A DNA stretch of 54,412 nucleotides, filler included, from Porpidia crustulata (GCA_964255105.1; 4 parts of 4 records of this genome joined end to end with filler, not necessarily neighbours in it), one strand, 5' to 3'. Counted from the whole stretch's first letter, positions 3-54,412 are shown. Program-made: numbers and translations. The notes: generated by a model from the letters alone, not told the origin.

Positions 3-539
3 AAACGTGAGGGTGCAGGTTCCGCGGCTCGCCAGGGGGTAGCTGGAGATGCTGTAGCGGTAGGGATGGAGAGGGGAAAGCAGGGCGAGATAGGATGAGA
101 ACGGGAGGGGGATGGTAGCGTGTGCTTCTAAGAGATCGAGCACAGTGAATTTTGTGATGAGAGAGGAGGAGATGCAGAGGTCGCCAATGAGGCTTTCGAG
201 ACTGGCTTTGGTAACGGGATTCGAGCAGTGCCGCATTAGGATTTCCAGATCGCGGCAGCTAGCAGGCTCATCGAGCTTGACCTGGGAAGCGAGCACCTCC
301 CACACAGGAACGGTAGTACTGTCGTGACACCGATTGCCCGGGGGTTCGATAAGCATGAAGGTATCCCATGACAGATCGAAGTAGCTGAGTACTCTTTTGA
401 TGGTCTGATAAGGATTGAGAGGGAAGATGTTGAGATAGTCGCCGGCTCTATAAGATGACCCAGCTGGGAGTTGTAGCTCGAGATGCCTGACTGGGGGTTT
501 CGTGGTGGTGATGAGACTGTTCTGGAGGATGAGGGTTTT
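3..539 (-). CDS. FAD-binding region of a bifunctional cytochrome P450/NADPH-P450 reductase (CYP505/P450foxy-like); internal fragment running off the scaffold start
   Basis: Open minus-strand frame, absent from the ORF track because it has no start or stop: ...VRHLELQLPAGSSYRAGDYLNIFPLNP...VLDLLEAHATIPLPFSSYLALLSPLHPYRYSISSYPL...CTLTF. Matches CYP505/BM3 reductase motifs (RHxExxLP..Y.AGDYL; RxYSISS). Confidence 0.85.
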
Positions 540-549
540 NNNNNNNNNN

Positions 550-603
<54 letters not shown>
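550..603. repeat. 54-nt poly-C run abutting an N gap; probably a sequencing or assembly artefact
   Basis: Pure homopolymer next to Ns at 540-549; the pattern fits two-colour poly-G read tails. Confidence 0.7.
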
Positions 604-761: not shown

Positions 762-1705
762 CGCCGTTTTATAAAAGAAATAGGAAGGGGAAGTATCTCC
801 AAGGTAAAGTACTGCTATTGTCTCAAGATGGATTTACTAGCAAGAAAACGAAAGCATATAGAGATATATTCCTTGGATGTAAGATATACGTCAGATCTGT
901 AATGACGCGTCTTCTATGTAACTGGACAAGAATTTCGTTGCTCTGTTTCTCCACCTAGGGTCGATCGTATCCACGGACTTTAATGGGGCGAATCCAGATA
1001 CCTGTCACAACCAGTACTTTACCATTTCGTTGGAAATGGTGTGTTCCACCCCACGGGTCTTGATCATCCGTGGGTAAGAGCAGATCCTATGTAGGCGTAT
1101 CTCGGTCGATGTCGCCGCTATCGTTTTGTTCCGAAAGGACATTCGGAGTTAAGGTCTAGGTGTAGCACGAAATCCTTATTATAGCGCGCTGCTCGCTTTG
1201 ACATGATCAGAGAATGTGCGTAGCAGATTGGCGCTTTGTGAGCTTGGGAAGACGACGTGTAAACGTAAACAATAATATTGATTTTATGATTTAGATAGGC
1301 TTGCAATTAATGTGTCATTGCCAGTGTAATCGCACGGGCCAAAAACATGAACCTGCGGAATTATATTTTCGACTATGTCGTCCAATAGTGATTCCATTTC
1401 ATAAACGTGTACTTGTGGATCTGATGGAAGCATGATTATGACGGCAAGACGAGCTAAAATCCCTACATCAGACGAATCTGTTGTTTAGTCCTAACAAAGA
1501 GTCGTCGGTAAACCTAAGATTATTATGATGGGAATACTCGAGGAATGCCGTAATTAAACACACTAACAGCAATAGAGACATGGCTCATTGCACTCATCTC
1601 ACAAGCTCAGGAACTGGCCGAGGGAGCATTGATGAGCCAGCAAGGGCAGTTGGTCTCAGGACCAAACTCCGTAATTTTAATAGCTGCTGTAAGGAGCAAT
1701 CTGCT

Positions 1706-3412
1706 CTAGGCTGAATAACCTGGATGTTTCTTATTCCATTCCCTGGCCCTCCGCTCTTCCCTCCACGCTGGTCCCCATCGGAGCTCAACCCACAACAGAG
1801 GAGTAGTGAAAAGGACAACTGCTGCAACGAAAGTGAAACACCAGCCTCTGCCCATTGCAGAGATCAATTGGATGATGACTGCAGTACCGGCAGCTCCCAT
1901 GAAGCAACGCACCAAATTGTTTGCGGCAGTGGCCGTTACTGGGCTGAGCGGGTATAGATCAATGCACATCGTGCTTGTGATATTAAACGTACTGGTAAGA
2001 CAGAGGCCGATGATGAAAGTAAAAACCAGTGGCACTGCAAAGTGAGTTTCGATCTCCAGCACCCAGCCGTAGCATACGAGAGCAATAAGACCCGGGAAGA
2101 TAAAGGGCCACATGACTTGAACACGAGCTTTCTCGAGAGGAAAATCTCGCATGTCGTCTCCCCTTTTGCGATCGACTGTGATGTTGGCAGCCTTGGCTAC
2201 CCGTTTATAGTTGAAATCCATAAATTTTCCGCACACAAGTGAGGCAGCAGTACAGCCCACTCCATAGGGAATGAATGCCAATCCGATTTGTAAATCAGTG
2301 AACCCATAAATTTTGCTGAAGAGACTAGGGAGGCTAGTAGTCACACAGTAGTAGGAGGTGTATACTATTGAGTTGAAAAAAAGAACAATAGCAACATCCT
2401 TTTCCATGAGGACGTGGAAAGCTTTGAGGGGGTTAGGGCATCTTAGCCGTCGTCGAGCACTGAGCTTCCCTCCCAGGGCCTTCTTTTCCTCGCTTATGGT
2501 TCCCTGATTTAGGGTCTGGGTGGATTTGCGCAATGCAAGGTAATTGAGCAAGCACATATTCCAGCCTTGGGGCGGTATAGAACCGTCGCCAACAATATTC
2601 CGCCCGGTCTCGGGAACAGTCGCAAGGAACGGTATCAAGAATGCCGCAGCCAGAATCGTCAGGAACCAGAAGATTGACCTCCATCCGAGATAATGACTTA
2701 GAATTCCCCCTAATATCGGACCAATTGCGGGCCCTAACATCGGTCCTGACATCACAAATCCCATGTACAAGCCGCGCTCGGCGCTGGTCGCAACGTCTGC
2801 TACCATACCAGCACCTAGTGCGATAGTGCCACTGCTTCCTGAGCTCTGCAGGCACCTGAATACGAGCAGAGCGGCATAATTGTTTTGCAAGGCCAATCCA
2901 ATATTGGCCAATATATAAACGGTAAATCCGATGCAGTAAGCAGGGCGGCGACCAGTCATATCTGCCAAATCCCCATATATCGTTGGCGCTAGAGCTTGGA
3001 ATATCATGTAAGAGGTCACCGTAAGATTGATGAGCTCGTCGGATACCTTGAAGTCTTTTGCAAGTGTGTTCAGCGCAGGGAAATATATGTTCGTGGAAAG
3101 GGTAGAGAAGAGGCCAGCTAAAGCGGCCATGAAGACGATGTATCGCTTTTGGCGTTGACTGAAGACAGAGTATCTAGGACCACGACTTGAATCAGAGTCT
3201 GCCGTTTCGAGGTCTTCCCCTTTCGCATCAAATTTCAAGCTACCTTCAGCTAAGGTTTCTTCATCGTACGCCGGTAGACGGCTAAAGATATTTCCAGGGT
3301 CCTCCTCTCGTGTCATAGCAGGATGAGGCAACGTGTCCGACTCATCTTTAAAGAATACAGGGGCTCGTGTGGGAATCGGCCGTCCTACTGATGGAGGTTC
3401 AGGGATTGACAT
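1706..3412 (-). CDS. MFS transporter, DHA1 family, QDR/AQR1/CexA/Itp1-type (organic-acid or drug exporter); intronless, ~568 aa
   Basis: Motifs YSVFS..QKR.IV, LSTNIYFPAL, DLADMTGRRP, GAGMVADVATSAERG, WRSIFWFL, PETGRNIVGDGS, TAANNLVRC; ~12 hydrophobic segments. First in-frame ATG is at 3412 (the track starts at a TTG). Confidence 0.9.
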   Translation of the reverse strand: MSIPEPPSVGRPIPTRAPVFFKDESDTLPHPAMTREEDPGNIFSRLPAYDEETLAEGSLKFDAKGEDLETADSDSSRGPRYSVFSQRQKRYIVFMAALAGLFSTLSTNIYFPALNTLAKDFKVSDELINLTVTSYMIFQALAPTIYGDLADMTGRRPAYCIGFTVYILANIGLALQNNYAALLVFRCLQSSGSSGTIALGAGMVADVATSAERGLYMGFVMSGPMLGPAIGPILGGILSHYLGWRSIFWFLTILAAAFLIPFLATVPETGRNIVGDGSIPPQGWNMCLLNYLALRKSTQTLNQGTISEEKKALGGKLSARRRLRCPNPLKAFHVLMEKDVAIVLFFNSIVYTSYYCVTTSLPSLFSKIYGFTDLQIGLAFIPYGVGCTAASLVCGKFMDFNYKRVAKAANITVDRKRGDDMRDFPLEKARVQVMWPFIFPGLIALVCYGWVLEIETHFAVPLVFTFIIGLCLTSTFNITSTMCIDLYPLSPVTATAANNLVRCFMGAAGTAVIIQLISAMGRGWCFTFVAAVVLFTTPLLWVELRWGPAWREERRAREWNKKHPGYSA

Positions 3413-4983
3413 CGCGAGTATGGCTGGAGCACCTTTGTACGGCCTGATTGTAAGATATGGTAGCAAGAGAAATGGTTGTCAGCTACAACTCCGACATCGG
3501 AGACAATCATTGCAACATATATAGTTCCCACTTTATGCCACCAACTGTTCTGGGCCCCAGCTCCTTCACACTCATCAATGGCAGCCATGGCGTGCCCAGT
3601 GCCTTGAGGGAAATTTCATGGCCCACGGACCGCCGGCTATGGAGCTTCAATCCCTCCAAAGTAAGATCCATTCTATGGGTGGCTCCCAATATGTGGGGAT
3701 CGACGACGGACACGGGTATAGAGCGATACAAGCGATTGACGCAACCGTATACGACAGACATCGATGCAGCGCTGCGTGGTCTGCTCTCGTCAAAGCATGA
3801 CGCTTGTCCTGAGAAGGTATTCATTCGAGGTCACTCGATGACTAAGCGGCGGAGCGGGAGGATTCCAATTTCCCGTGTTCCGTCCCGAGCACCCGCTTCC
3901 CGTGGCTTCTCACTCGATCTGATACCGTGATACGTCAATGTTTCGAGATGTGATCTTGTAGCGTCGATGATTGTTCGGGGTGGCCTAAATGGGTTTTCGA
4001 GTGGGACTGCCATCGTACATCCTGATATCCGTAGTGAATAGGATCATGTAAGCAATATGTCAGAGTACAACGAACCGTGATTAGCTATTTGATAGAAGCT
4101 TGCTCCGAAGCTTGTTGGTTTGCACGTTTTCCAACCAAGCACAGAAATTCTCATCAATTACCAAAAGAGCAATTGGGCACTAAGAGGCCGTCGGAAACCT
4201 CAGGCTTCGTGCTTTATGCTCCGTGCTTGATGCTCCTTGCTCTTGAATGAAGCACCGAAGGTTGGCCGATAGCGTACTCGATGTCAATGATCGAATTCTC
4301 TGGAATATTTCAAGAAGGGCGTAGATCGGGTCCGCGGTGACTCAATAACTTAGAAAGGCGAACTATCTTGATCTTCAAGTCCATCGAATATCACACGGTG
4401 AACACTTATCGTGGGGTCTGTAAGGGTAGCCTTGATGGTAGTAGCTGCCTGGAGCGTATTCGATTCGACCAGCTATACTCTGTACCGTAAGAGAAACCTC
4501 ATGCAGGTGTGGCTTGAAAGCTTGGTAGCACCTTTCTCCGCAACGCAATTTAATTGGTGGATAGGAGGCGGCATGATATCCGTCAGCAGCCTTCGATGCC
4601 AACTACTGCCAGAACCTGCATCTCAAGAGAAATTGTCCACTCGGATAGGTTGAAGTCCAAGTAAAATGCGCCATCACTAGCAGGCCGCTTATGACGCTGG
4701 CTATGGCTGTCAACTGCCAAAGTCTTGGCAAGGTCAAGGTGGCGAACCGACGTTCTGACCCCGATGCTGTCGACGCTGTCAGAGCTTCCCTCTCGGTGGT
4801 CGAGGAGCACGTTCTTTTTCTTACTAAAATATTGTACGACCCTTTCAATGCTTTCAGCCGAGTCTCCCATGCTGATCTAAATATTCCCAGCCGCGATCAT
4901 AGCCAAGGAATAGGTGGCCCTTTACCTACAAGAACCGCGTTCCGACTTTTCCGAACACTATATCCCACTGGTGAGCTGTCAAT

Positions 4984-7607
4984 ATGACATTCGCAGAAGC
5001 GTCGTCATCGAGCCAAGAGGGCCGACGTCGGGCGCAGACTGCCTGTACCTTTTGCCGGAGAAGAAAGGTCCGTGGGAGACATTTCCAGTCAAAGCCGTGG
5101 CGTCCTAAGCTTACATATGGCGATAGATGAGATGCAACAATGAGCAACCACGATGTATGAATTGTGTAGCGTTCGATCAAGCATGCAGTTACGAGGAGAT
5201 CCGCAAGAAAACGAGGTAATAGAAATCCCGTTACTGGGCGCTGTCACCCAGCATGACACGTTGGGGAGTCTTGGCTGATTGTTCAAGACCATCATCTGCA
5301 CGTTTATCAAATCTGGAGGAAGAGAACCGAAACCTCCGCATGCGTCTTGACACAGCGAGCAGAACGTCGTCTGCTAATGTCGGTCAAGACGTTGCATTAG
5401 CTGGGTTGCAATCCTCCGCCAAGGCCAATCTAGCGCTCGAACGCTCCAATGAGACTAGCACACCTAGCGCGTTCAATAAAGACCAAGATATTAGAAGCCA
5501 AGATACAAAGCCTAACGACGACGGAGATCCACAAAGCAGTAGTGGTGAATACATATATCATGGCCTTACAAGCCCTTCAGCACTTGAAGATACCTCATGG
5601 AGTCATGCAGCATCAGATACCAACCCCGGACCCCAGGCCTCGACTGAATGGATTCGCGGTCAGCTGGAGGCAGAAGCCTCGCAGCAGCGTGAGTCTCCTT
5701 GAGAATATAATAGCGGCTAATAACAATGTCTTACGCACAAGCAGGTCGACTCGAGGCTTTCAATTTCTATTCTAATACATTAGACTTCGATGGCGTAGAT
5801 CCAGAACTTGGAATGCATTTGTTGTCTCTCCATTGGAATCGTCAACATCATTCGTTCTTGATCACCTACAGACCTACCTTCATGAGAGATATGGCCTGTG
5901 CAGGGCCATACTATTCTAAGCTTCTTTTGAATGCCATCTACTTTGGTGCCTCTAAATTCAGCTCTAGGACTGAAACTCGATCTAATCCTGCGGACGCACG
6001 TACCGCTGGGTGGGTATATCGACAAAGAACCAAAGAATTGCTAGCTCTTGCTCTGGACCATAGTAAAATAACCACCATCCAAGCCTTGCTAGTGATGACG
6101 ACTTCTCTGTTTGCACTAGGTGAAGAGAAGAGCGTGGCATGGCTTTATGCTGGTCTAGCGTTCAGGATGATCATGGACTTGGGTATTCATATAGACGCTT
6201 CTTCTTCATCTACAACGCATCAATTCTCCCATGAGGATCTAGAAATCCGAAGGCGGGTCTTTTGGGCAGCGTTTGGTGAGTTCGATGGCTGTTCGATCCC
6301 AAAGCTAATGATCTAATTCATGTCCGCAGTCGTCGACAAAGTTCATTCACTCTACCAAGGAAGACCTGTTAATATGCAAGAAATAGAATGCCGAGTACCT
6401 ATGCTATTTCTGGATCAGTACGAAGAAAAGGAGAATTGGCAGCCTTTTGGCTTCTCTGGAAGCCGCCATTATGCTGGATGTCCAGCATATACAATCTCTA
6501 CCTTCATTAGCCTGTGTAAGCTCTGTGTCATTATGAATCGGATTTTAAATAAACTGTATATCGAGCAAAGCCCAAACCGAGGACCAGACGGACTTGGTAA
6601 GGATCTTGAATCTTTGCATAGCGAACTTGAAGAGTGGCATAACACACTGCCTATACACTTGAAACTCGATACTTCGGATTTCAACAATCCTATGCCACCA
6701 CCACACGTTATTTCCTTGTTGTGAGTATCATTTGCACGGTGAATCACAAGGGACTAGATTTGAGGCTAACGAATGTGTTTTCAGAGCTATGTACCATGTC
6801 CTTCTGATTCAGCTGCATCATCCGTTTATTACCACGGGCCACCTGTCTTCCGCGGCACCCTTGACTGCTCGGTATTCATTCACCACATGCGCAATAGCCG
6901 CTGACGAGATAGTGCGGTTGTTGATGGCCTACAACAGAACATTTTCCATACGCAAAGCACCATACTTGATCTCGTATGCGACATATGTGAGCGCAACGAT
7001 TCATGTGCGCATCGCTGCACAGAAACCTCTTGGCTCTGAAGCACATTCATGCTTGCAAATCTGTCTTGCCGTGCTCAATGAGAATCAAGCCACAAATTTG
7101 GTAGTCAGCAGTGCTAGGCTGACCTTGAGCAACTTGATGAAGCGAACAGGCGTTGTGTGTAGAGATGACCAGGATCTTTTGGAAATTGGACGAATGCAAG
7201 AACTGCCCATGGTCAGCCAATACTCTAGCGCAGGGCCGCAGTCAGCCACTCAAGCGCTGTCCGACTTGCAGGCGGAAGGCTACGCCGAGGCTGAACGTAC
7301 CATCCAGACAGCTGATCCGATCCTTATTCCGCCGGACTTTGATATTGAAATGATGCTTCAGAGCTTCGGAGGGGAGCAGATTGACGGAGCTCATTTGAAT
7401 ATCGAGGCAGGGCACGGACAATATCCTCTTCCTGTACAATCGTCTTCTGTTGATTATCAAGAGGCTGGAAACACCCCTGAGCTTGAAGCAATGCTGCTTG
7501 ATCCTGCTAATACCAGTTATGGGCCGGCAACGGGTTTCAATCCCCAGTACTTGGGCGTCTTTGATCCAACGGATACGAGCCGTTGGAATTACACACCAGA
7601 TCACTAG
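4984..7607 (+). CDS. Zn(II)2Cys6 fungal transcription factor with Fungal_trans middle domain (NirA-like), ~6 exons
   Basis: Spliced zinc cluster ACTFCRRRK|MRCNNEQPRCMNCVAFDQAC (exons ~4984-5067 and ~5127-5215), coiled coil LEEENRNLRMRL, and middle-homology motifs AFRMIMDLGIH, EIRRRVFWAAF, DKVHSLYQGRP. Stop at 7607. Confidence 0.92.
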
Positions 7608-8826
7608 GGAAATACAATTGTAAGACCGGGATATCTAGAAAGAAGAGGCCATCTTGGGTTGGCTGAATATGTCGGAGAATCTGTGAAGAGAGAATGTCAA
7701 AGGCAGAGCGAGTGTCAAACTGTCTCTATAAACAGAACGCCAGAAGAAAATATAAATTGCAGTCTACTTACAATTGATGGGGCATTGTGAGGTATATATC
7801 GTATTGTGAAGAAAATGCCGCGTCATCAAGTGATTAGCAAGACCGTCGAGCTAGTCCAGCCAAGTTAAACTTCCACCAGGGAAGGACGAAAGTCAGTGTT
7901 CAACAGCCGGTCTTCATAGGGACATTCAATAGGCCAATAGATTCTCGGCTTTCTTGGAATACCTTAGTATGATCGTTGACTGTTTCAATCGTAAGAAATG
8001 TGCAATCAGAAGAACCAAGCAAAGAAACGTATGGAATTGATCCAAATTGGCCCGATCACGTTTTGCTGTTTACTGACTTTCGACACCCCCCTGGTGTTCT
8101 ATCGGATCTTACATTGGGTTGACTTCTCGGCTTACTAACCTCAATTGATGCCGACTTCTATGCTAACAATATCCTTCCCAAAACCCAAGGTACCATATTT
8201 CGGGGCCAAGAACGTGGTCCTTAATGGTAGCGTTACTTGACAACGTCTATCACGCAGGTAATATTACATAGTGTACATTAGTAGAGTAATTGAAAACCAC
8301 ACCAGCCTTTTGTCTACAGAGCTACGCGAGACAGTTACATCAATCCCGCGGCAGCTTACTCCCATGGTAAATCTAGCCAATTATTGAGCTCGCAATACGA
8401 CCATGACTGCATTCTAGGGATGATCTTCAGATGACACTAAAGTGGCGACTGAGGTGTCTGCCCGATGAGAGACTCTACACATATTGTGATAAGTGGCTAA
8501 TGGCCTTTGGTCGGAACCCGGCCTGAACAAGAATGAAGGACGATGATGCATCTACTCAATTCAGGTCCAGTATTCTACGGGGTTGTACGGGAATGAATAT
8601 ACGGCCATGGGATGGCTTCAGCCACGGGCTCAAGAGCTGAGATCTGCTAGAACTCCCAGGAGTCACAACCCCCTGTCAGATACGTCTTTGGCGATGACGA
8701 CAAGCGATGCAGACCATTGACACCAGTCGAATTTGATTGCTTCTTAAGGTCGAAGTCGATCATCACAATGGTTTGGCTATATAAATAGATCTCTGGACCT
8801 CAAGAGCACTTGAATTTGAAGGAGAT

Positions 8827-10254
8827 ATGTCTATTCGCAGCGGGACCTTGATAAGGTTTGCAAGCTCTGTAAGCACATTTTCCAGATCTATTCAATTTCC
8901 CGTTCATTTACCTCGACTCTTTACGCCTCGCGCCATGCCTTTCGTCTGGGGAAGTCAGCCGGAACAACGTCGCCGAAGGGTTCTGAAGGCGGTCCTTATG
9001 AGGTCCGGTACTTCTAAGGGACTTTTCATCCATCGTGATCAACTTCCATCGTCCGAGGCTGAATGGAGCCCGATTCTTCTTTCAGCAATGGGCTCCGCGT
9101 CCGGAGACAAGCAACAACTCGATGGCGTTGGAGGCGCAACATCCACAACCTCGAAAGTTGCAATCATATCGAAATCGAAACGCCCAAACGTGGACGTTGA
9201 TTACACCTTCGCCCAAGTTGCGGTTGGCGACAAGAAGATTGATATGACCGGAAACTGTGGTAACATTGCTTCTGGCGTGGGGCCTTTCGCCTTAGATGAA
9301 GGCCTGGTCACAGCCAAACCAGGGCAAACAGAGGTTTGTGATTAAATTACATATGTTATGGTTTCAGACGAACTCTATCTGATCAAACAACACTGTTGTT
9401 AGCTGGAGATACGAGTTTTCAACACAAACACATGCCGAACCCTCGTCGAGACCGTTCAAGTTGATCCTAAAGGTAGATTCTTGGAAGAGGGCGACCACCG
9501 GATAAGCGGATTTACCGGATCAGGTAGCCGCATCAAGGTGAAATTTGTTGATCCTGGCGGCAGTATGACAGGAAAGCTATTCCCATCAGGCCAGCGCCAA
9601 AATAACATTACGGTCCGCTCACCGGGCATGAAGCCCATCGTCACCGTCCGAGTAACCTTGATTGACGCTGCAAATTCGTTCATCTTTGTCGATTCCTCTA
9701 CTCTACCCGAAGTGTATCATCAGCTTGGTCCCGAAGCGCCGGCATCTCTTGAGTTGATTGAAGCTATTCGACTGGAGGGTGCTGTGCTTTCTGGTTTAGC
9801 GCCAGACGTGGAAGCTGCAAAGCTTATTAGGGGTACTCCAAAAATCGCGGTTCTTTCACCACCCAGGCCGACTGAGGGGGTCTCTTCCAAGGAAAGGCAA
9901 TCGGACATAGATGTGACTGCTTTCAGTATGGGAAAGGTCCATCCATGTTTGCAACTGACAGGAGCTGTTTGCATAGGCGCGGCGACGAGCCTGCCCGGAA
10001 CCGTCGCTTTTGATTTGTCTCAAAAAGCGATAAGGCTGGGTAGCTTTCCCCGACACCCATTATCTCCGAGAGTTTCCATGAGCCCTATGCATCGTAAAGT
10101 GTGTATTGGGCAGCGAGGCGGGCAGATATTGGCAGATGTCAAGATCGGGGGCTCTGAAGGTGATGTGGAAGGTGTCAGCGTGTCTCGGACGGCTCAAAGA
10201 CTTTTCGAAGGCAATGTAATGCTCGCCGTCGAAGGAAAGCTCTTGTGGCACTAA
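8827..10254 (+). CDS. PrpF-family isomerase (aconitate delta-isomerase / methylitaconate isomerase / oxalomesaconate tautomerase superfamily), 2 exons, ~452 aa
   Basis: Motifs MRSGTSKGLF, DGVGGATSTTSKVAI, GNCGNIASG (catalytic Cys), FNTNT, DPGGSMTGKLFPSG, PKIA, SMGKVH, RTAQRLFEG. Intron 9334-9402 joins the exons in frame. TATA-like TATATAAA at ~8779. Confidence 0.92.
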
Positions 10255-10565
10255 AAGTCGGCCCGGACTCGTGCTGAAGAATCTGCAGCCTCTCTATGTA
10301 CCGATCAAAAGGCCTGTAACTGATTCAATAGGGGGCAAAACTAATCGGACTACCTTAACATTCATTCATCGTAAGGTATCATCACCGCTCAAGTGGCCAC
10401 GATGAGACTTTCAATGACAATGAAGTACTTTATATTCCAACGACGAGTAATCTGTGTGACTACAGGTCCCTTCAGATGCCCACTGCTCAAACAGCACTTT
10501 AAATACGCAGCCCATTGCTGTACGGAGAAAACGATTATACAGGCTGTGAGGTACTCTAAGGTTTG

Positions 10566-10586
10566 AGATAAGATAAGATAAGATAA
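10566..10586. repeat. (AGATA)4 microsatellite; also reads as tandem GATAA sites
   Basis: agataagataagataagataa seen directly. Confidence 0.8.
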
Positions 10587-11417
10587 TCCAAACCGCAATG
10601 GCGTAAATGTGGGTGTGTGGGAGTATAGAATATAATAAAAGCCGCGATAGCCTTTGAGTGCAGGTGGAATAAAACGTATTTTTCTCGTGCAAGAGGTAAG
10701 CTCCAGATACCTGACCTTACCCCAGACGTACCAGAGGGGCGACATGCGTGTACTATGCTGAACAGGGTGAGAGGGTATTCAGGACAATATGCCGCCCATG
10801 CCGCCTTCCCGTCCCGCAGGCGATTCTCATAAAGAAATCTCACTCTGTTCCACTGCCTTGTTGATCCTCATGCAGTGAGAAGGCTGGAAACAAGATACTC
10901 CACTGAAGATGCACGGTGACAACACTTGAGCTGCCGTCCGCCGCTGAAGGTCATGAACGTCGAAGGTCAAGCGAGCCTTTCAACCACTGGGAGCGAAAAT
11001 GACAATCGCTTCCGACGATCCTCACCTCCCTATCTTGCAATCATCTGTGCGGCCCGTTTCTCATGAGTATCATTCCCTTCTGCCTGCTGGTGACACAGTA
11101 TGTCTGGGACTCGTGTGTTGCCCAAGCTTCGCGTAGAGATGAGCGACAGTGCCGACAACCGGTCTTTTCTCGCCGCTCACCACAATTTTCACATCAGCAA
11201 TCAGTCTGGAGATCCGGCTCCGGAGTAATTGACCTTATGCCACTCTCTCGAGACTTTGGGCTCGATCACGCTATCGCTAATTGCACAAGAAATACTCTGC
11301 ACGGTGGCTGGCTTTGTTTTGCTGCAATTACTTGTACAGCGCCATTATCGGGCTTTCTCCGTCGGATTTTCTTGCTCTGATTTCTGAAAGTAACTGTTTT
11401 GCTCGACAATATCAACA

Positions 11418-12839
11418 ATGTCTCCTGGAAAATCGGGTGGGAAGACGCAGTTATCGCCACCCCTGAACCTGATAGGTATGCTCTTGAATATCGCAACGTT
11501 CTCTTCGTCTCGGCCGAGAGCCCTTAGTATCTAATGCGATCGCCATTGACAGCTGGAGGCGGAGCTGGTATGATGGAAGTACTTTTGTGTCATCCTCTTG
11601 GTATGCCGCTCTTTACTTTAGAGAAACTTGTGCACCATACTTACAGCTGAGCAGACACCATCAAAGTACGGATACAGCTCTCATGTGCAGCTCAAATGTT
11701 CATGTAAGCTCTACGTAATCTAGCTGAATCGCTGCTGTACATCTTAGAGACTTACTTCGCTTCTGACCGCTATCCCAGAGCACCAAAGCCTATAATGTAA
11801 ACATCTGACTAAATTATATGATAGGATCAAAGTAGAGGGCTCTCTAAGACTGTCAGGGATATTGTAAAGCAATCTCCACTTGGCTTCTACAAGGGGCTTG
11901 GGCCTGTCTTTGTAGGTATCATACCGAAGATGGGCATTCGATTTACGAGTTTTGAAGCATACAAGTCAATGCTAGCGGATCGAAGCACTGGAATCTTGAG
12001 CGATCGAGGGACATTTCTAGGTTAGTAGTTTCTGCTTAAAGGCTTGTCAAGCCACTCTATCCGACTCTGCTCACTAGGTATTTAATAAGTCATACAGCTG
12101 GTTTGACTGCTGGTATCACAGAGGCCGTAATGGTAGTAACCACCATGGAAGTGGTCAAAGTCCGTCTCCAAACTCAGAACAATCAAATAGGAGATGGGCT
12201 GAAGGTCCGGAAATATCGAAACACAGGGCACACCTTGTATACTATAGTTGCGGAAGAAGGATTAAGTGCTCTGTACAGCGGAGCGTCTCTGACTGCGATA
12301 CGGCAAGCATCGAACGTATCCGGTACGATTGACTAGAATTACTTTGTGTTTCGCTTTCCAACTCCGTCAGATCGTCTGGTCTCCAGCTCACTCCGCGACA
12401 GTGAACCTAACTGCATACATGAAAATGAAAAGATATCTTCAAGAGTGGCAACCCGCATACACGGGACAAGAGCTGCCGGGATACCAAACCGCAGGGATTG
12501 GCCTGATAGCCGGTTCAATGTGCCCGATTTCCAATGCTCCGATTGACACCATCAGTACGTTTTCTCGTCCCTCATCCTTGTCACTCCAAGCACGTCACCC
12601 TTCGAACTCTGGCTGATCACCAGCCCCATTTTTTAGAAACCCTCGTCCAGAAATCCCCAGCAAAACTTGGCCGGACCGGCATCGCACACATCACCGCCGT
12701 AACGCGAGATCTGTTCAAACGGGAAAGGTAGCGTGCGCTGTACAGGGGCATCACGCCTCGCATCATGCGCATCGGTCCCGGCCAGGCCGTCACATATACT
12801 TTGTACGAGTATTTCAAAGCGAAGCTAGGGCCGGCTTAG
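11418..12839 (+). pseudogene. Mitochondrial carrier, succinate/fumarate (SFC1/ACR1/AcuL) type; divergent, with an in-frame TAG at 12729-12731 (pseudogene, editing target or base error)
   Basis: Spliced reading: NLIAGGGAGMMEVLLCHPLDTIKVRIQLS; GFYKGLGPVFVGIIPKMGIRFTSFEAYK; AGITEAVMVVTTMEVVKVRLQ; LTAIRQASN; SNAPIDTIKT; FKRER*RALYRGITPRIMRIGPGQAVTYTLYEYFK. The exon 3/4 junction phase is uncertain. Confidence 0.75.
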
Positions 12840-13551
12840 GAAAAAATAACTCGCGCCGCGCTCGCCGGGTCGGTTCCCGTGCTTCGCCGCAAATCCGGGA
12901 GCGTTTGACCGCGTGCAATCCTTGCAAAGGAGGGGCCGAGAACTTGCGAGGGTGGAGGTGGGAGATGCATCTCTTCGTCGTGCGGAGGAAGGGAAACGCC
13001 GACAAGTTTGCGCCCGCGAGGGGCATCAAGCACAGCCAGACTTTTCCCTCGGAATCAGACGCGGGAGAGTAAATCAATGACCCGTCCCCGCCCCCCACGG
13101 AGTAGGTGGAGCGTTTTCATAACTTCATCAGATATTGTATCGACTTGCGTGAAGGCGGGGGCCCACGTGTATACCATCGAGTTAGTGCTATACAGTACAT
13201 AACCACAATAATCGAATACATCACCCAAAATAATCCTCTTTTGTATATATTTCCGAACGAAATTAAATCACCAGCCCCGGGCCAGATCAATCGGTAAGTG
13301 TACAAAGAACTCCTACGTAAAAACCGGGTCTCGTGCTTCTCTTGAGGTTGCGCGGGTTTTGACCCCCCGGTGTGGGACTCCCATGCCCCCTCCCCCCGGG
13401 GGGTTTTTTTTTTGGTGGTTCTCTCTCTCTCTTTCTGTTAATTTTTTTTTTTCATCGTGCCGTCAGAACAGGAAGAAGAGAATGGATGATTTTTTTGGAT
13501 CGTTGTTGGTGTGGTGATTTCGACCGGGTGGGTAGGGGGATGGAAATATTT

Positions 13552-13651
13552 NNNNNNNNNNNNNNNNNNNNNNNNNNNNNNNNNNNNNNNNNNNNTTAAT
13601 TAATTAANNNNNNNNNNNNNNNNNNNNNNNNNNNNNNNNNNNNNNNNNNNN
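13552..13651. other. Artificial scaffold linker (N44-TTAATTAATTAA-N44)
   Basis: Stop-in-all-frames linker flanked by Ns; the same linker occurs at 27183-27282 and 40802-40901. Confidence 0.97.
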
Positions 13652-14767
13652 GCGGGGAAAGACGCGCGGGAAGAGCTTCGTCAGGGGCTGCTTCAGCATT
13701 GGCAGGCAGGCGCAGATGATGCCGGCGTTGGCCTCGATCGTCGTCCAGATGGTGGAGCGCAGGGTTCCGTAGATTTGATCCGGTGAGGTCGAAGACGGCT
13801 CCAGCGTCGTGACGCGGAATACCGAGGTGATGCAGACGCTGGACTTTTTTGTCAGTGATGGAGGAACGAAAAGGGGGGGGTTGGAATTGGGGGACTTGCA
13901 ATAAGCCGAGCCCGAAGACCATGACGACGGCGATCTTTTCGTACTTGGGCATCTGCAGCTTCCAGACCACCCGGACTGGCAAGCAGCAGATGACCACGTC
14001 GCTGCCGATGTTGGCGACGGCGTTGGCGACCCAGAACGCCGTCAGGTTGATGCAGGTCCCCGCTATGCTCTTGTCGAACGTGCGGTCGATTGGCGTGCAC
14101 TGGAACGCGGTGACGAAGAAGCTCGCGGTTGCGTAACAAGCGACGAAGAAAAGGACCCCGTGGACGGCGTGCCGGAAGATTGGAGATGCCGTGCTTGACA
14201 CGGCAAAGACGCGGAGGTACAGCAGCAAGATTGAGATCTTGGTGCAGTTGATCGTTAACTTGTATAGTAATTGGCAGCTCCAGAACAACTGCCAGACCTC
14301 TTTAGTCGGTGGCGTGAGAAAGGTCAAGATCACGACTTACCCGCAAGGCAGCGTGCTGATCGTACAGCGACAACGTCGCTGCTGCAGAACCGTACCCAAA
14401 ATAGACACCTACCATCAGTCAAAATCGATCGTATATAGAAGTTCTGAGACCACCCATACCGACACAATTGGCTGCACCAAGACCGATAGCAAAGCACTGT
14501 CAGAATATTCGTTAGCATCTTTATTGTTGATATAGTCTCGCTAGAGCCATCTGATATCGATTAGATTGTAGATAGAGTGAGGGTAGTTACCGCGGAAATA
14601 GCAATAAAATAGTCATCCAGATGTAGTTTCCGTCCAGTCTTCTGTCTAGTACAAATACGATAAATCACCAACGCGACGGCGAGAGCTGTAAAGACCGCGG
14701 TTATGTAAATCAATTCCATGCCACGGCCCTGGAATCGTTCACCAGCTCGATTTTGGATAATACCCAT
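13652..14767 (-). CDS. Pth11-like (fungal rhodopsin-domain) integral membrane protein without CFEM; 3' end cut by the scaffold edge
   Basis: Exons encode RKLHLDDYFIAIS, LYKLTINCTKISILLLYLRVF, FQCTPI, NIGSDVVICCLPV, LQMPKYEKIAV and a WTTIEANAGIICACLP segment, all typical of the family. Confidence 0.85.
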
Positions 14768-21756: not shown

Positions 21757-24700
21757 ATGGCGACGGCGGACCAGCTATCACGTTGGCGACAACGGCTATC
21801 GGATCTCACTGTCTCTCCACTGACTCGTAAGTACTCGATAGCAAGATAGCGACGTAGGATCGGCTGATCAAATCACAAGGCGACTACCCCGAGCCCCTGC
21901 AGTCAGCTCTAGAGTCAGCCAAACGACCCATCGAGGCCTGCGAAACACTTCAGCTCTCCGCCGAAACCGAGTGTGCGATACATCGACTTCGCAATATCGA
22001 GAATCAGCAACCTTCTAGCTTCGTTGTTCTACTCACGGCGCTCGTCGTGCTCGTGAGCCGCTTGACAGGCGATGAAGACATTGCTCTTGGATCAAATAAT
22101 GGCCAGGGGATTGCTTTTGTCCTACGTACAGCTTTGGATGCTAAGGAATCTTTTGTTCAGCTGCTGACTAGAGTGACAAGAGTTTTTTCCGAATGTGCCT
22201 CAGACGCAACGCCGATGGAGAAGTTGCTGCGCGATCTGGGCATATCGAGTCTTTATAGGGTAGCACTGTACTCCTGNNNNNNNNNNGTCCAGAGACCCCT
22301 GCCAATGCCTCGGATTCCATGGATCTTACGATCTTCTATACAGGAACATCTGGAGCGAATAACAGGTCCTCTGGGACTAACGGAACCGTTTGTAACCAAG
22401 CCCCAGAATTGCGCGCCATCTACAACCAGAGGTTCTTTGCCTCTTCTCGAGTAGCTATAATTCTGAGTCAATTGGTCCAGCTCGTTAGAAACGTATCCTT
22501 ATTTCCTCAACAATGCCTTAGTAAGGTCGATATTATGACCGAGGCTCAGTCAAGATTATTACCTGATCCGAGAAAGGATCTTAACTGGTCACAGTTTAGA
22601 GGCCCTATACACGAATTATTCGCTGCCAATGCAAATCGACGCCCGGAATTATTGTGTGTTAGAGAGACCGCATCAGGCTCATCTCCGCAACGAGATTTCA
22701 CTTACAAGCAGATCAATGAGGCTTCTAATATCGTGGCCCATCATCTCATTCAGTCCGGTATACAGAAAGGAGAGGTCGTAATGATTTATGCACATAGAGG
22801 TGCAGACTTGGTTGTAGCTGTCATGGGCGTTTTAAAAGCTGGGGCTACATTCTCTGTTCTTGATCCGTTGTATCCTCCGGAGCGCCAGACTATTTACTTG
22901 GACGTGGCAAAACCTCGGGCATTAATCAATCTTGAAAAGGCCACACTCGAGGCCGGAGAGTTGACCGATCATGTCAGATCGTTCATTAAAGGCAACCTGC
23001 AACTAAGGACGGAAATACCAGCCCTTGTGATCAAGGATGATGGGACTTTACTCGGAGGTCAGATGGAAGGGTTCGACGTGCTACAGAAGCAGCAGGCGTA
23101 TAAAGCCACGCTTGCCAACATCATTGTTGGGCCTGATGACATTCCAACCCTAAGCTTTACCTCTGGATCCGAAGGCATACCAAAAGGGGTACGAGGGCGC
23201 CACTTTTCACTGGCGTATTACTTTCCTTGGATGGCACGACGATTTAATCTTGGAGAAAATGATCGTTTCACAATGTTATCAGGTATAGCACATGATCCAA
23301 TACAAAGAGACATCTTCACACCTCTGTTCCTCGGTGCCGAGCTCCTAGTACCCTCAAAAGATGATATTCAGAACGAGAGACTCGCCGAATGGATGCAAGA
23401 TCATGGTGCTACCGTAACGCATCTAACCCCTGCGATGGGTCAAATTCTCGTCGGAAATGCCACGGTCGAATTTCCCAAGCTCCATCACGCATTCTTTGTT
23501 GGTGATATTTTAATCAAACGTGACTGTAAATCTTTGCAGAGATTGGCTCCTAATGTAAGGGTCGTTAATATGTATGGTACAACGGAGACACAGCGGGCTG
23601 TTAGCTATTACGAAATCCCAAGCTTCAATGACGACTCGACGTACCTTGACAGCATGAAGGATGTTATACCAGCTGGAAAAGGCATGTCGGAAGATGTTCA
23701 ACTTCTTGTGATCAACCGTGCAGACCCAACCAAAGTCTGTGGTATAGGTGAATTAGGTGAGATCTATGTACGGGCCGGGGGTTTGGCGGAAGGCTACCTA
23801 GGACTTCCGGACCTCACTGATAAGAAGTTTGTAAGGAATTGGTTCGTGGATCCCGAGAAATGGATTACAGAGGACAGCAAAAGTGTAGCGAGCAGTGTAA
23901 AACAACCTTGGAGAGACTACTACAAGGGACCACGTGATAGACTATACCGGTCTGGAGACTTGGGCCGCTATACTCCCTCAGGAGGTAAGTCAATCCTCTC
24001 GATATGTCTCGCTCGAACTAACGATCTGAATTATGCAGACGTTGAATGCTCTGGCCGTGCTGATGACCAAGTCAAGGTAGGCATTCGCTCTGAGTGGCAA
24101 AATAACGCTAACCTATCGAGCATTAGATACGAGGCTTCCGCATAGAGCTGGGAGAGATTGACACTCATTTATCAAAGCACCCTCTTGTCCGAGAGAACGT
24201 AACCCTTGTGCGCAGAGACAAGGATGAAGAACCTACTCTTGTCAGCTACGTTGTGCCACAGATGAACGCATGGTCATCATGGCTAGGAGAACGCGGTATA
24301 GAAGATCAAATAGACGCAGAAGGCATGGTCGGCCTCTTGCGACGGTTCCGTCCTCTAAGGGAAGACGTGAGAACCTACCTCAAAACCAAATTACCCGCTT
24401 ATGCTGTCCCTGCCACTGTCATACCACTGAGAAAAATGCCATTGAATCCGAATGGCAAGATATCGAAGCCTGCGTTACCTTTTCCTGATATTGTAGAGCT
24501 TTCTGCAGCGGCACCAAGAAGGCCGTCTACATCATTATCTGCGCTCTCAGAGACCGAAAGCAGTCTGGCGTCTATCTGGGCTGGTCTACTTGGACTGCCT
24601 CAAAAGATGATAGGAATTGAGGATTCCTTCTTTGACCTGGGTGGGGACAGCATTAAAGGCAATAGAATGGTTCTTGAAGTTAGGAGGACATGGCGAGGCG

Positions 24701-54243: not shown

Positions 54244-54412
54244 TTGTATCTGATTTCTTGGTTTTGCATGGCAACGCACTCTTATTTGGAATATACAGCA
54301 TAGCCTGGCGTCACGTAGGGACGAAATACATATTTGGGAAATGAGCACAAGTCGCCAGCGCCCTCGGCTCCTGGTCTATCCATCTCCCGGCCACAATATA
54401 CCCCCTCCGCTC

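What the first reader, a model, noticed from the sequence alone, without database searches (positions are those of the whole stretch)
1706..12839. Candidate aconitate-isomer / organic-acid gene cluster: exporter + Zn2Cys6 regulator + PrpF isomerase + mitochondrial carboxylate carrier
Seen: four consecutive non-housekeeping genes on one scaffold, namely a CexA/Itp1-type DHA1 MFS divergent from a Zn2Cys6 TF, a PrpF-family isomerase with intact GNCGN, and an SFC1-type carrier. Established: the Ustilago maydis itaconate cluster combines a PrpF-type aconitate-delta-isomerase (Adi1), an MFS exporter (Itp1), a mitochondrial carrier (Mtt1), a regulator and a P450; Bacillus thuringiensis makes trans-aconitate with a PrpF-type isomerase plus a transporter. 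Inference: this ascomycete module follows the same logic but shows no decarboxylase (no Tad1 or CadA in the scaffold) and uses an SFC1-type rather than CTP1-type carrier. It may make and secrete trans-aconitate (an aconitase inhibitor and chelator), or assimilate/detoxify it or a related unsaturated acid. I do not recognise this combination as a described cluster.
Basis: partly seen in the sequence, partly recalled or inferred. Interest (0 to 1): 0.8.

Follow-up and report, generated by a model that had tools for sequence, protein, structure and literature searches.

The report
Conserved fungal aconitate-type isomerase gene cluster
Four neighbouring genes in this lichen-type fungus (a membrane transporter, a regulator, a mitochondrial isomerase and a mitochondrial carrier) belong to a gene cluster found in many fungi that probably moves an aconitate-like plant acid between the outside and the cell's central metabolism.

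Summary
All four genes are at the stated coordinates. They are a drug-efflux-like MFS (1706-3412, -), a Zn2Cys6 regulator (4984-7607, +), a PrpF-family isomerase with catalytic Lys and Cys (8827-10254, +) and an SFC1-like mitochondrial carrier (11418-12839, +).

The grouping is not chance. In 13 non-redundant fungal loci, the regulator sits beside the isomerase in 12, a mitochondrial carrier is present in 10, and all four gene kinds occur in 8, in shuffled order and orientation.

A CCGCGG site is enriched about five-fold in the cluster genes' promoters (P about 3e-8, with the promoters it was found in excluded).

The isomerase carries a conserved N-terminal extension that looks like a mitochondrial presequence.

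In most fungi the partners are an anion-symporter MFS and a CTP1-like tricarboxylate carrier, which points to uptake of an external tricarboxylate. Trans-aconitate is the best candidate, giving a eukaryotic analogue of bacterial tarRAB.

This window holds a variant with swapped transporter types, so direction here is open. There is no decarboxylase in the window, and the carrier has an in-frame TAG 36 codons before its stop. A relative's cluster also holds a PrpD/IRG1-like gene.

The enzyme's substrate is inferred, not shown. I found no published description.

The parts
1706..3412 (-). MFS transporter gene, single exon, 568 aa plus stop; drug-efflux-like (DHA1-like) type
   Evidence: Pfam MFS_1 at E 2.5e-48. 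NCBIfam best match Bcr/CflA at 131 bits, below the cut-off of 200.9. Atlas gives generic ascomycete MFS multidrug clusters. A 58% identical gene sits in the same cluster of L054/55/57, in the opposite orientation.
3413..4983 (.). Divergent promoter region of the MFS and regulator genes
   Evidence: It lies between the two start codons and holds one CCGCGG site.
4332..4337 (.). CCGCGG site, candidate binding site of the cluster regulator
   Evidence: The motif is enriched in promoters of cluster genes across 13 loci.
4984..7607 (+). Zn2Cys6 / Fungal_trans transcription factor gene (exon 1 4984-5067, intron 5068-5126, exon 2 5127-5215, further introns)
   Evidence: Six-cysteine pattern across the first intron. 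Pfam Fungal_trans at E 1.6e-20 and 2.5e-06. Collinear with the single-ORF regulator of L051. Orthologues lie next to PrpF in 12 of 13 loci.
8346..8351 (.). CCGCGG site 481 bases upstream of the PrpF start codon
8827..10254 (+). PrpF-family isomerase gene (exon 1 8827-9333, intron 9334-9402, exon 2 9403-10254 with stop), 452 aa
   Evidence: Pfam PrpF on both exons. Below the cut-offs of both NCBIfam equivalogs. PDB relatives are Mii, YbhH, LigU and PrpF. Falls in a fungal clade with support 97.
8827..8934 (+). First 36 codons of PrpF, before a second in-frame Met: presequence-like extension, basic and rich in Ser/Thr, no acidic residue
   Evidence: An open in-frame extension is present in all 31 distinct fungal N-termini. 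Mitochondrial targeting is inferred.
9250..9264 (+). GNCGN motif holding the catalytic Cys (codon 144, 9256-9258); the catalytic Lys is codon 110 (9154-9156)
   Evidence: Alignment to 3g7k; invariant columns in 16 fungal homologues.
11418..12839 (+). SFC1-like mitochondrial carrier gene, seven exons (11418-11475, 11553-11600, 11655-11703, 11833-12020, 12098-12322, 12402-12554, 12637-12839)
   Evidence: Pfam Mito_carr. Splice model with GT..AG introns. 52% identity over 307 aa to a named succinate-fumarate transporter. Orthologues in L001-3 and L054/55/57.
12729..12731 (+). In-frame TAG in the last carrier exon, 36 codons before the normal stop
   Evidence: Orthologues have Phe or Leu at this position. 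An independent contig of run X1 has the same letters, but X1 is probably the source data.

Best explanation
The window holds one copy of a gene cluster conserved across Pezizomycotina.

Its constant core is a Zn2Cys6 regulator beside a PrpF-family double-bond isomerase that is sent into mitochondria. A plasma-membrane MFS transporter and a mitochondrial carboxylate carrier join the core. The genes share CCGCGG promoter sites, so they probably form one regulon driven by the cluster's own regulator.

The most likely job is to link an external unsaturated tricarboxylate, most plausibly trans-aconitate, with the mitochondrial TCA cycle. The proposed route has four steps.
1. The MFS carries the acid across the plasma membrane.
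2. The carrier takes it across the inner mitochondrial membrane.
3. The isomerase interconverts trans- and cis-aconitate.
4. Aconitase takes over.

In most fungi the partner genes point to uptake. This makes the cluster a eukaryotic counterpart of the bacterial tarR-tarA-tarB system, with one added organelle transport step.

The copy in this window is a lineage-specific variant. The anion-symporter MFS is replaced by a drug-efflux-like MFS, and the CTP1-like carrier by an SFC1-like carrier. The carrier bears a premature stop. So direction and present function in this genome are uncertain.

Shown: the genes, their conservation and shuffling, the shared motif, and the open N-terminal extension.
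Inferred: mitochondrial location, regulation by this regulator, the substrate, and the direction.
For: Genes and families.

Conservation:
- A scan of metagenome contigs with 16 fungal PrpF homologues gave 80 loci. I treated 40 of them as fungal.
- Among 13 non-redundant loci with usable flanks, window included, the regulator is adjacent in 12, a carrier is present in 10, an ACS- or DHA1-type MFS in 8, and all four in 8.
- Order and strands differ between loci. The MFS and the carrier are inverted in L054 relative to the window. This argues for selection on the clustering rather than inherited synteny.

Named genomes:
- The Aureobasidium subglaciale PrpF and carrier carry locus tags three apart.
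- Six more species have both proteins listed with the same longest-contig length.

Partner types:
- The MFS of L022, L028 and L031 matches the ACS-family model TIGR00893 best (E 2e-09 to 7e-55). The MFS of L010/11, L013 and L076 is its orthologue.
- Their carrier is named citrate or tricarboxylate transporter by its sources and by Atlas clusters. It is 57-66% identical to such proteins.

SFC1-type carriers can move tricarboxylates:
- Arabidopsis SFC1 carries citrate, isocitrate and aconitate (PMC7408384 passage).
- Yeast Sfc1 also carries cis-aconitate (PMC5144973 passage).

Shared motif:
- CCGCGGC occurs in 15 of 22 PrpF upstream regions, against a shuffle mean of 1.9 and a maximum of 9 for any 7-mer.
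- CCGCGG occurs 24 times in 26.5 kb upstream of regulator, carrier and MFS genes, against 30 times in 171 kb elsewhere. The binomial P is 2.7e-8, and same-composition hexamers are not enriched.
- Window sites lie at 4332 and 8346.

Presequence: all 31 distinct fungal N-termini keep an open in-frame extension (minimum 37, median 63 codons). Of these, 26 have at most one acidic residue in the first 25.

Precedent: bacterial tarRAB combines a regulator, a PrpF-superfamily aconitate isomerase and an MFS importer (PMC11495376 passages).

Bacillaceae relatives sit beside a citrate:proton symporter and a CcpC-like LysR regulator.
Against: - No activity was measured, and the fungal clade has no specific bacterial sister of known function.
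- The protein is below the cut-offs of both the PrpF and the oxalomesaconate tautomerase equivalogs, so sequence does not fix the substrate.
- I could not compare it with Adi1, TbrA or TarA, because no sequence of these was at hand.
- In this window the MFS is of the efflux-like kind, which fits export better than uptake.
- No CCGCGG site lies upstream of the window's carrier or of L054's carrier.
- The carrier has an in-frame stop.
- A relative's cluster holds a PrpD/IRG1-like gene whose divergent promoter carries three CCGCGG sites. This suggests further chemistry in this lineage.
- L014 and L029 have PrpF without any transporter within about 10 kb, and L029 also lacks the regulator.
- Mitochondrial targeting rests on composition only; no predictor was run.
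- The motif was discovered in the same set of loci. I excluded the PrpF windows, but the loci are related to one another.
Confidence: 0.5

Rival explanations
1. In this lichen-type lineage the cluster is a production and secretion module. Aconitate made in mitochondria is isomerised, leaves through the SFC1-like carrier, may be processed further, and is exported by the efflux-type MFS. The further step could be done by the PrpD/IRG1-like enzyme seen in a relative. The product would be trans-aconitate, itaconate or a related acid.
For: - The window MFS matches drug-efflux models only. In the Ustilago paper's table the exporter Itp1 also has a drug-efflux protein (EmrD) as its best match (PMC4720413 passage).
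- L054/55/57 carry an MmgE/PrpD-family gene divergent from the orthologous MFS. Three CCGCGG sites lie between the two genes.
- Its nearest solved relatives are IRG1, IDS-epimerase and cis-aconitate decarboxylase.
- A P450 lies about 2 kb beyond the carrier in L054.
- The layout (enzyme, MFS, regulator, carrier) resembles the Aspergillus terreus itaconate cluster. That comparison is recalled from memory.
Against: - The window has no PrpD-like, Tad1-like or P450 gene in the cluster.
- Making trans-aconitate, an aconitase inhibitor (PMC11495376 passage), inside the matrix looks self-harming.
- The same regulator-isomerase core sits with importer-type partners in six other non-redundant loci.
- The carrier is broken in this genome.
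- The PrpD-like gene is seen in one relative group only.
Confidence: 0.2
2. The cluster is real, but the isomerase acts on another unsaturated acid.
- One candidate is 2-methylaconitate, in propionate breakdown.
- Another is a methylitaconate or mesaconate-type dicarboxylate.
- A third is a ring-cleavage tricarboxylate such as oxalomesaconate or carboxymuconate, from aromatic breakdown.
For: - The N-terminal half scores higher with the oxalomesaconate tautomerase model than with the PrpF model (145 against 107 bits).
- Its nearest solved relative is methylitaconate isomerase.
- Bacterial relatives sit in methylcitrate, nicotinate-fermentation and other contexts.
- In L031 the cluster abuts genes for a carboxymuconolactone decarboxylase family protein, a propeller lactonase and a hydrolase.
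- Yeast Sfc1 also carries methylfumarate (PMC7408384 passage).
Against: - A single enzyme with two transporters fits a substrate that is one step from central metabolism. The alternatives above need further enzymes, and these are not conserved in the cluster.
- The common carrier type is tricarboxylate-like.
- The aromatic-pathway neighbours occur in 1 of 13 loci.
- The protein is below both equivalog cut-offs.
Confidence: 0.2
3. The four genes are neighbours by chance or by inherited synteny alone, with no shared function.
For: - Only two other lichen-type contig groups share the SFC1-like carrier (L001-3 and L054/55/57). Only one shares the efflux-type MFS.
- The window's carrier promoter lacks the motif.
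Against: - The gene set recurs with shuffled order and strand in distant fungi.
- Motif enrichment in non-PrpF promoters has P 2.7e-8.
- The MFS and the carrier are inverted between the window and L054, yet both stay adjacent to the core.
Confidence: 0.05

Closest known systems
Bacterial trans-aconitate assimilation system tarR-tarA-tarB of Bacillus velezensis (PMC11495376; passages read)
   Same: - A pathway-specific regulator, a PrpF-superfamily isomerase and an MFS transporter are encoded together.
- One isomerisation feeds the acid into the TCA cycle.
   Different: - The regulator here is Zn2Cys6, not LysR.
- The fungal cluster adds a mitochondrial carrier and a predicted mitochondrial enzyme.
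- Relatedness of the fungal enzyme to TarA was not tested.
- The paper does not mention fungi: 0 occurrences of 'fungi', 'fungal' or 'eukaryot'.
Ustilago maydis itaconate cluster: Adi1, Tad1, Mtt1, Itp1, Ria1, Cyp3, Rdo1 (PMC4720413; passages read)
   Same: A PrpF-family isomerase is clustered with an MFS, a mitochondrial carrier and a regulator.
   Different: - No Tad1-like decarboxylase, P450 or Rdo1 in the window.
- The regulator is Zn2Cys6, not helix-loop-helix.
- The carrier is SFC1-like, not CTP1-like.
- Adi1 is cytosolic, while this enzyme has a presequence-like extension.
Aspergillus terreus itaconate cluster: CadA, MttA, MfsA and a regulator
   Same: One enzyme, a mitochondrial tricarboxylate carrier, an MFS and a regulator form a compact cluster.
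   Different: - The enzyme there is a PrpD-family decarboxylase.
- The window has none, though a PrpD/IRG1-like gene lies in the cluster of L054/55/57.
Bacillus thuringiensis tbrA-tbrB trans-aconitate production operon (known here only through PMC11495376 passages)
   Same: A PrpF-superfamily aconitate isomerase is paired with an exporter.
   Different: - That system is bacterial and has no organelle step.
- No sequence comparison with TbrA was done.
Solved PrpF-family enzymes: Mii 3g7k, YbhH 6otv, LigU 6p3h, PrpF 2pvz, 2h9f
   Same: - Same Pfam family, with the catalytic Lys and Cys kept.
- E-values run from 1e-30 to 1e-6 per half of the protein.
   Different: - Not an orthologue of any of them.
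- Below both NCBIfam equivalog cut-offs.
- The fungal clade stands apart in the tree.

Membership tests
PrpF superfamily (Pfam PF04303) | Match to the family model over its whole length | tested here: met
   Exon 1 covers profile positions 5-117 (157 bits). Exon 2 covers 118-370 (140 bits). The cut-off is 27.
PrpF superfamily (Pfam PF04303) | Catalytic Lys and Cys, the Cys lying in GNCGN | tested here: met
   The residues align with Lys62 and Cys96 of 3g7k (their catalytic role is recalled). Both columns are invariant in 16 fungal homologues.
2-methylaconitate isomerase PrpF proper (TIGR02334) | Score above the equivalog cut-off of 440.55 bits | tested here: not met
   107.4 plus 96.4 bits for the two exons. 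A true PrpF beside AcnD scores 608 bits (L145).
4-oxalomesaconate tautomerase (NF033377) | Score above the equivalog cut-off of 440 bits | tested here: not met
   145.3 plus 93.5 bits.
Aconitate isomerases of the PrpF superfamily (Adi1, TbrA, TarA) | Interconversion of cis- and trans-aconitate | not testable with these tools
   This needs an enzyme assay.
Aconitate isomerases of the PrpF superfamily (Adi1, TbrA, TarA) | Closer kinship to Adi1, TbrA or TarA than to other family members | not tested
   No sequence of the three was at hand. The plasmid search listed no Bacillus row among its top 40. The genome scan returned no B. velezensis locus.
Ustilago-type itaconate cluster | Trans-aconitate decarboxylase (Tad1-like lyase) in the cluster | tested here: not met
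   No such domain among the window's ORFs scanned with Pfam.
Aspergillus terreus-type itaconate cluster | PrpD-family cis-aconitate decarboxylase in the cluster | tested here: not met
   No MmgE/PrpD hit in the window by Pfam. tblastn with the L054 gene found nothing at E 1e-5. The gene is present in L054/55/57.
Succinate-fumarate carrier (SFC1) type of the mitochondrial carrier family | Closest named relatives are SFC1 proteins rather than CTP1-type proteins | tested here: met
   52% and 48% identity to two SFC references, against 28-30% to three CTP-named proteins. Top named hits of exon 5 are succinate-fumarate transporters.
Succinate-fumarate carrier (SFC1) type of the mitochondrial carrier family | Complete open reading frame with three repeats | tested here: not met
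   An in-frame TAG at 12729-12731 removes the last 36 residues.
DHA1-type drug:proton antiporter MFS (the group of CexA and Itp1) | Match to a DHA1 subfamily model above its cut-off; kinship to CexA or Itp1 | tested here: inconclusive
   The best model is Bcr/CflA at 131 bits, below the cut-off of 200.9, and it matches the N-terminal half only. Kinship to CexA or Itp1 was not tested.
Zn2Cys6 fungal transcription factors | Six-cysteine binuclear cluster plus the Fungal_trans middle domain | tested here: met
   Cysteine pattern found; PF04082 on two exons.

The most novel reading that the evidence does not exclude
Pezizomycotina carry a widespread regulon for taking up trans-aconitate, a major organic acid of grasses. 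I found no description of it in the five searches of the held library.

The regulon has five parts.
- An anion-symporter MFS.
- A CTP1-like mitochondrial carrier.
- A mitochondrial PrpF-family aconitate isomerase.
- A dedicated Zn2Cys6 regulator.
- A CCGCGG promoter element.

It would be the eukaryotic, compartmentalised counterpart of bacterial tarRAB. Lichen-forming fungi hold a rewired version, with an SFC1-like carrier, an efflux-type MFS and, in some, a PrpD/IRG1-like enzyme. That version may instead make and secrete an aconitate-derived acid.
Probability: 0.4. Interest if true: 0.8.

Novelty: new variant of a known kind. Interest (0 to 1): 0.65.

Why it matters
Trans-aconitate is abundant in grasses and root exudates, and it inhibits aconitase (PMC11495376 passage). 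How fungi cope with it or feed on it has not, as far as my searches show, been tied to genes.

- A conserved four-gene regulon with a mitochondrial isomerase would give a directly testable answer. It would matter for cereal pathogens and endophytes: named carriers of the cluster's PrpF or carrier genes include Rhynchosporium, Zymoseptoria, Parastagonospora and Exserohilum.
- It would supply new parts for engineering aconitate and itaconate production in fungi: an isomerase that works in the matrix, matching carriers, an inducible promoter element and its regulator.
- The swap of both transporter types around a fixed regulator-enzyme core is a clear case of non-orthologous replacement within a metabolic gene cluster.

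Tried and rejected
- Whole genome of the window: not held. A search for a second SFC1 copy, or for Tad1/CadA elsewhere in the genome, was therefore impossible.
- Earlier findings of this scan: nothing to show.
- RNA evidence: no RNA holder listed. Laying the three DNA runs showed only that a contig of X1 is identical over 1500-13000. X1 is probably the window's source. X2 and X3 gave short unlike pieces. So there is no expression, splice or start-site evidence, and no independent check of the TAG.
- Extending L054 leftwards: the record is not held for region fetching.
- Getting TbrA through the plasmid collection: 503 records matched, 25 of them Bacillus, but none was in the 40 rows listed. 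I did not pursue it.
- Getting TarA through a genome scan seeded with a Bacillaceae homologue: 79 loci came back, none from B. velezensis or B. subtilis.
- Tree of 66 PrpF-family rows (FastTree only): the fungal clade has no informative bacterial sister, so phylogeny does not assign the substrate. I used 51 of the 129 bacterial or metagenomic ORFs extracted: at most 6 per context label and 14 of the 64 without a label.
- A micro-exon model for the carrier (my first hand reading) was dropped. A one-intron model shared with L054 and L001 replaced it.
- My first exon coordinates for the carrier and the Zn-cluster exon were off by one or two bases. They were corrected.
- An 18-nt 'intron' that would skip the TAG was rejected. 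It is too short, and it would delete conserved residues.
- Atlas look-up of the MFS gave only generic names.
- The FAD-binding fragment at the left edge and the AMP-binding gene at 22 kb were considered as cluster members. I dropped them because they have no counterpart in the other loci.

Full report
**What is there**

The window is fungal. Genes have short GT..AG introns. The closest named relatives of the PrpF protein come from lichen-forming Lecanoromycetes: Lambiella, Pseudevernia, Xylographa and Letrouitia, at 58-65% identity over exon 2. Other Pezizomycotina follow at about 45-53% (571 proteins at E <= 1e-5 among 2408 candidates, 120 listed). No whole genome is held.

- **MFS** (1706-3412, minus strand). 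It is a single exon of 568 aa. It matches only drug-efflux-type models, all below their cut-offs (Bcr/CflA 131 bits against 200.9), and generic 'MFS multidrug transporter' clusters.
- **Regulator** (4984-7607, plus strand). It is divergent from the MFS. It has the six-cysteine pattern across a 59-base intron and the Fungal_trans domain.
- **PrpF gene**. Its exons are 8827-9333 and 9403-10254, giving 452 aa. GNCGN lies at 9250-9264. Both catalytic residues align with Lys62 and Cys96 of methylitaconate isomerase 3g7k (that these residues are catalytic is recalled).
- **Carrier** (11418-12839). It has seven exons with canonical splice sites.

Flanking genes were read.

- On the left is a FAD-binding fragment cut by an assembly gap.
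- On the right are a fungal-rhodopsin-domain gene and a RasGEF gene.
- Further right lie an AMP-binding/carrier/reductase gene and then housekeeping genes.
- No decarboxylase or P450 domain was found among the window ORFs scanned.

**Which subfamily the enzyme belongs to**

The PrpF protein is below the cut-offs of both curated equivalogs. Summed over the two exons it scores 204 bits for PrpF and 239 bits for oxalomesaconate tautomerase, against cut-offs of about 440. Its N-terminal half is nearest to Mii, YbhH and LigU. Its C-terminal half is nearest to 2h9f and PrpF.

I built a FastTree of 66 rows: 15 fungal, and 51 of the 129 bacterial or metagenomic ORFs extracted. The fungal proteins form one clade (support 97). 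They stand apart from three context-defined groups.

- True PrpF, found beside AcnD and PrpC.
- The Mii type, found beside a B12 mutase.
- A Bacillaceae type, found beside a citrate:proton symporter and a CcpC-like LysR regulator.

Sequence alone therefore does not fix the substrate.

**Is the grouping more than chance?**

I aligned 16 fungal homologues and scanned metagenome contigs (292 confirmed relatives, 80 loci kept). I treated 40 loci as fungal: L001-L035, L051, L054, L055, L057 and L076.

tblastn with the window's exons and Pfam or NCBIfam scans of the ORFs of 12 loci gave the picture below. It covers 13 non-redundant loci with usable flanks, window included.

| Feature | Loci with it (of 13) | Missing in |
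|---|---|---|
| Regulator beside PrpF | 12 | L029 |
| Mitochondrial carrier | 10 | L006, L014, L029 |
| ACS- or efflux-type MFS | 8 | the other five loci |
| All four genes | 8 | the other five loci |

The eight loci with all four genes are the window, L010, L013, L022, L028, L031, L054 and L076. Some contigs are short (L003, L006), so absences there are weak.

Gene order and strands differ from locus to locus. Relative to the window, L054 has both the MFS and the carrier inverted, yet both still flank the core.

Named genomes agree. In Aureobasidium subglaciale the PrpF and carrier proteins carry locus tags three apart. In six more species both proteins are listed with the same longest-contig length. 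The six are Rhynchosporium, Talaromyces proteolyticus, Leptodontidium, Rhexocercosporidium, Cadophora and Bisporella.

**Two configurations**

In L010/11, L013, L022, L028, L031 and L076 the MFS genes are orthologous to one another.

- NCBIfam, run on pieces from L022, L028 and L031, matches the anion:cation symporter model TIGR00893 best. E-values run from 2e-09 to 7e-55 on partial ORFs, below the cut-off.
- The carrier of these loci is called citrate or tricarboxylate transporter, or 'related to CTP1', by its sources and by Atlas clusters.
- That carrier is 57-66% identical to such proteins and 24-30% identical to SFC1 proteins.

The window, L001-3 and L054/55/57 have orthologous regulator and PrpF genes but different partners.

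- Their carrier is SFC1-like. The window's is 52% and 48% identical to two SFC references, which are themselves 52% identical to each other. It is 25-30% identical to the CTP type.
- The window and L054/55/57 have an efflux-type MFS, 58% identical between them.

So both transporters have been replaced around a fixed core.

A sugar-porter-type MFS lies divergently beside PrpF in a further subgroup.

**Shared promoter element**

In 22 non-redundant regions of up to 700 bases upstream of PrpF, the 7-mer CCGCGGC occurs in 15. The mean in 30 shuffles is 1.9, and the largest count for any 7-mer in shuffles is 9.

- The hexamer CCGCGG occurs 33 times in these 15.2 kb, against 55 times in the other 217.8 kb.
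- It is present in 18 of the 22 regions, often as two copies 20-55 bases apart.

The motif was found in PrpF promoters, so I tested the other genes apart from them.

- In windows from 1000 bases upstream to 150 bases inside the regulator, carrier and MFS genes it occurs 24 times in 26.5 kb.
- Elsewhere it occurs 30 times in 171 kb. The binomial P is 2.7e-8.
- Eleven hexamers of the same composition show no such bias.

The loci are related to one another, so this P is optimistic.

In the window the motif is not enriched overall: 9 sites against 9.6 expected.

- Two of the nine lie in cluster promoters: 4332 between the MFS and the regulator, and 8346 upstream of PrpF.
- None lies upstream of the carrier.
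- Two lie upstream of the neighbouring rhodopsin-domain gene (14590, 14695).

**Probable mitochondrial enzyme**

The window's PrpF starts 36 codons before a second Met, where many gene predictions begin. This stretch is basic, rich in Ser and Thr, and has no acidic residue.

All 31 distinct fungal N-termini keep an open in-frame extension before the first conserved motif, with a minimum of 37 and a median of 63 codons. In the first 25 residues, 26 of the 31 have at most one acidic residue, and all have at least two basic ones.

That the extension is coding is well supported. That it is a mitochondrial presequence is inferred, because no predictor was at hand. Ustilago Adi1 is cytosolic and nuclear (PMC4720413 passage).

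**A defect in this copy**

The last carrier exon has an in-frame TAG at 12729-12731, 36 codons before the normal stop. At this position the orthologues in L054 and L001 have Phe and Leu. The stop would remove the last transmembrane helix.

A Logan contig of run X1 has the same letters, but X1 is probably the source of the window. An error in the reads therefore cannot be excluded. The rest of the gene is intact.

**A further gene in a relative**

In L054/55/57 an MmgE/PrpD-family gene lies divergent from the efflux-type MFS. Its nearest solved relatives are IRG1, IDS-epimerase and cis-aconitate decarboxylase. Three CCGCGG sites lie between the two genes. A P450 lies about 2 kb beyond the carrier.

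The window has no such gene.

**Reading**

One enzyme sits with a plasma-membrane transporter, a mitochondrial carrier and a private regulator. This fits a substrate that is a single isomerisation away from central metabolism.

Several points make trans-aconitate the best candidate.

- The family chemistry is allylic shifts on unsaturated di- and tricarboxylates.
- The usual partner is a tricarboxylate-type carrier.
- The usual MFS is of the importer type.
- Bacteria offer a precedent in tarRAB (PMC11495376 passages).

SFC1-type carriers can also move aconitate (passages in PMC7408384 and PMC5144973).

For the lichen-type variant a secretory role remains a live rival. The MFS is efflux-like, and the relative's cluster holds a PrpD/IRG1-like gene.

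**Literature**

Five searches of the held library found no description of such a fungal cluster.

- The bacterial tar paper does not mention fungi.
- A 2026 paper on trans-aconitate production in Aspergillus niger uses heterologous TbrA, MttA and AexA. It has 0 occurrences of 'PrpF', 'degrad' or 'assimil' (PMC13755589 passages).

Subscription journals are not covered, so this is no proof of absence.

Noticed in passing
window 13596-14336 (-), with sites at 14590-14595 and 14695-14700: A fungal-rhodopsin-domain (PTH11-like) membrane protein gene lies next to the carrier and is cut by a run of N. Two CCGCGG sites 105 bases apart lie just upstream of it, so it may belong to the same regulon in this genome. 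A gene of this family also lies in the flank of L010 (278-1189), but with no motif nearby.
   Followed up: partly
window 3-602 (-): A fragment of a gene with an FAD_binding_1 domain (P450-reductase-like) runs off the left edge. It is interrupted by a poly-G stretch and N run at about 540-610, which is an assembly gap. No coding signal was seen between 700 and 1600.
   Followed up: partly
L054 135-1902 (-) and 15167-16783 (-); the same in L055 and L057: A PrpD/IRG1-like gene is divergent from the cluster's MFS, with three CCGCGG sites between the two genes. A cytochrome P450 gene lies about 2 kb beyond the carrier. Neither gene is present in the window.
   Followed up: partly
L031 11384-16066: Directly after PrpF come three genes: a carboxymuconolactone decarboxylase family protein, a seven-bladed propeller lactonase and an alpha/beta hydrolase. 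They resemble fungal oxoadipate-pathway steps. One CCGCGG site lies at 12192, just upstream of the first of them.
   Followed up: no
L004-L006, L017, L022, L023, L032, L033 (for example L006 3207-4367, L022 7585-9434); N-terminal hits only in L008, L009, L024: In one subgroup of fungal loci, a sugar-porter-type MFS (TIGR00879) lies divergently next to PrpF. In L022 it occurs in addition to the anion-symporter MFS.
   Followed up: partly
L090, L127, L143 and 10 further Bacillaceae loci: A conserved triad is present: a citrate:proton symporter (CitMHS), a CcpC-like LysR regulator and a PrpF-like gene. It looks like a tar-type system that uses a different transporter family.
   Followed up: partly
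L134 4997-9777 (Paracoccus): A HutC-like regulator, a PrpF-like gene, a lactonase-like gene and an anion-symporter MFS (TIGR00893, 333 bits) lie together. This is a bacterial parallel to the common fungal configuration.
   Followed up: no
window 22259-25110 (+): A gene with AMP-binding, phosphopantetheine-binding and NAD_binding_4 domains, either an alpha-aminoadipate reductase or a carboxylic acid reductase type. I did not judge it to be part of the cluster.
   Followed up: no
window 53263-54344 (+): A second MFS_1 transporter gene runs towards the right edge of the window.
   Followed up: no
window 8827 and 8935: The PrpF gene has two in-frame start codons 36 codons apart. Many database gene models of the orthologues start at the second. 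Use of both starts could give a mitochondrial and a cytosolic form.
   Followed up: no
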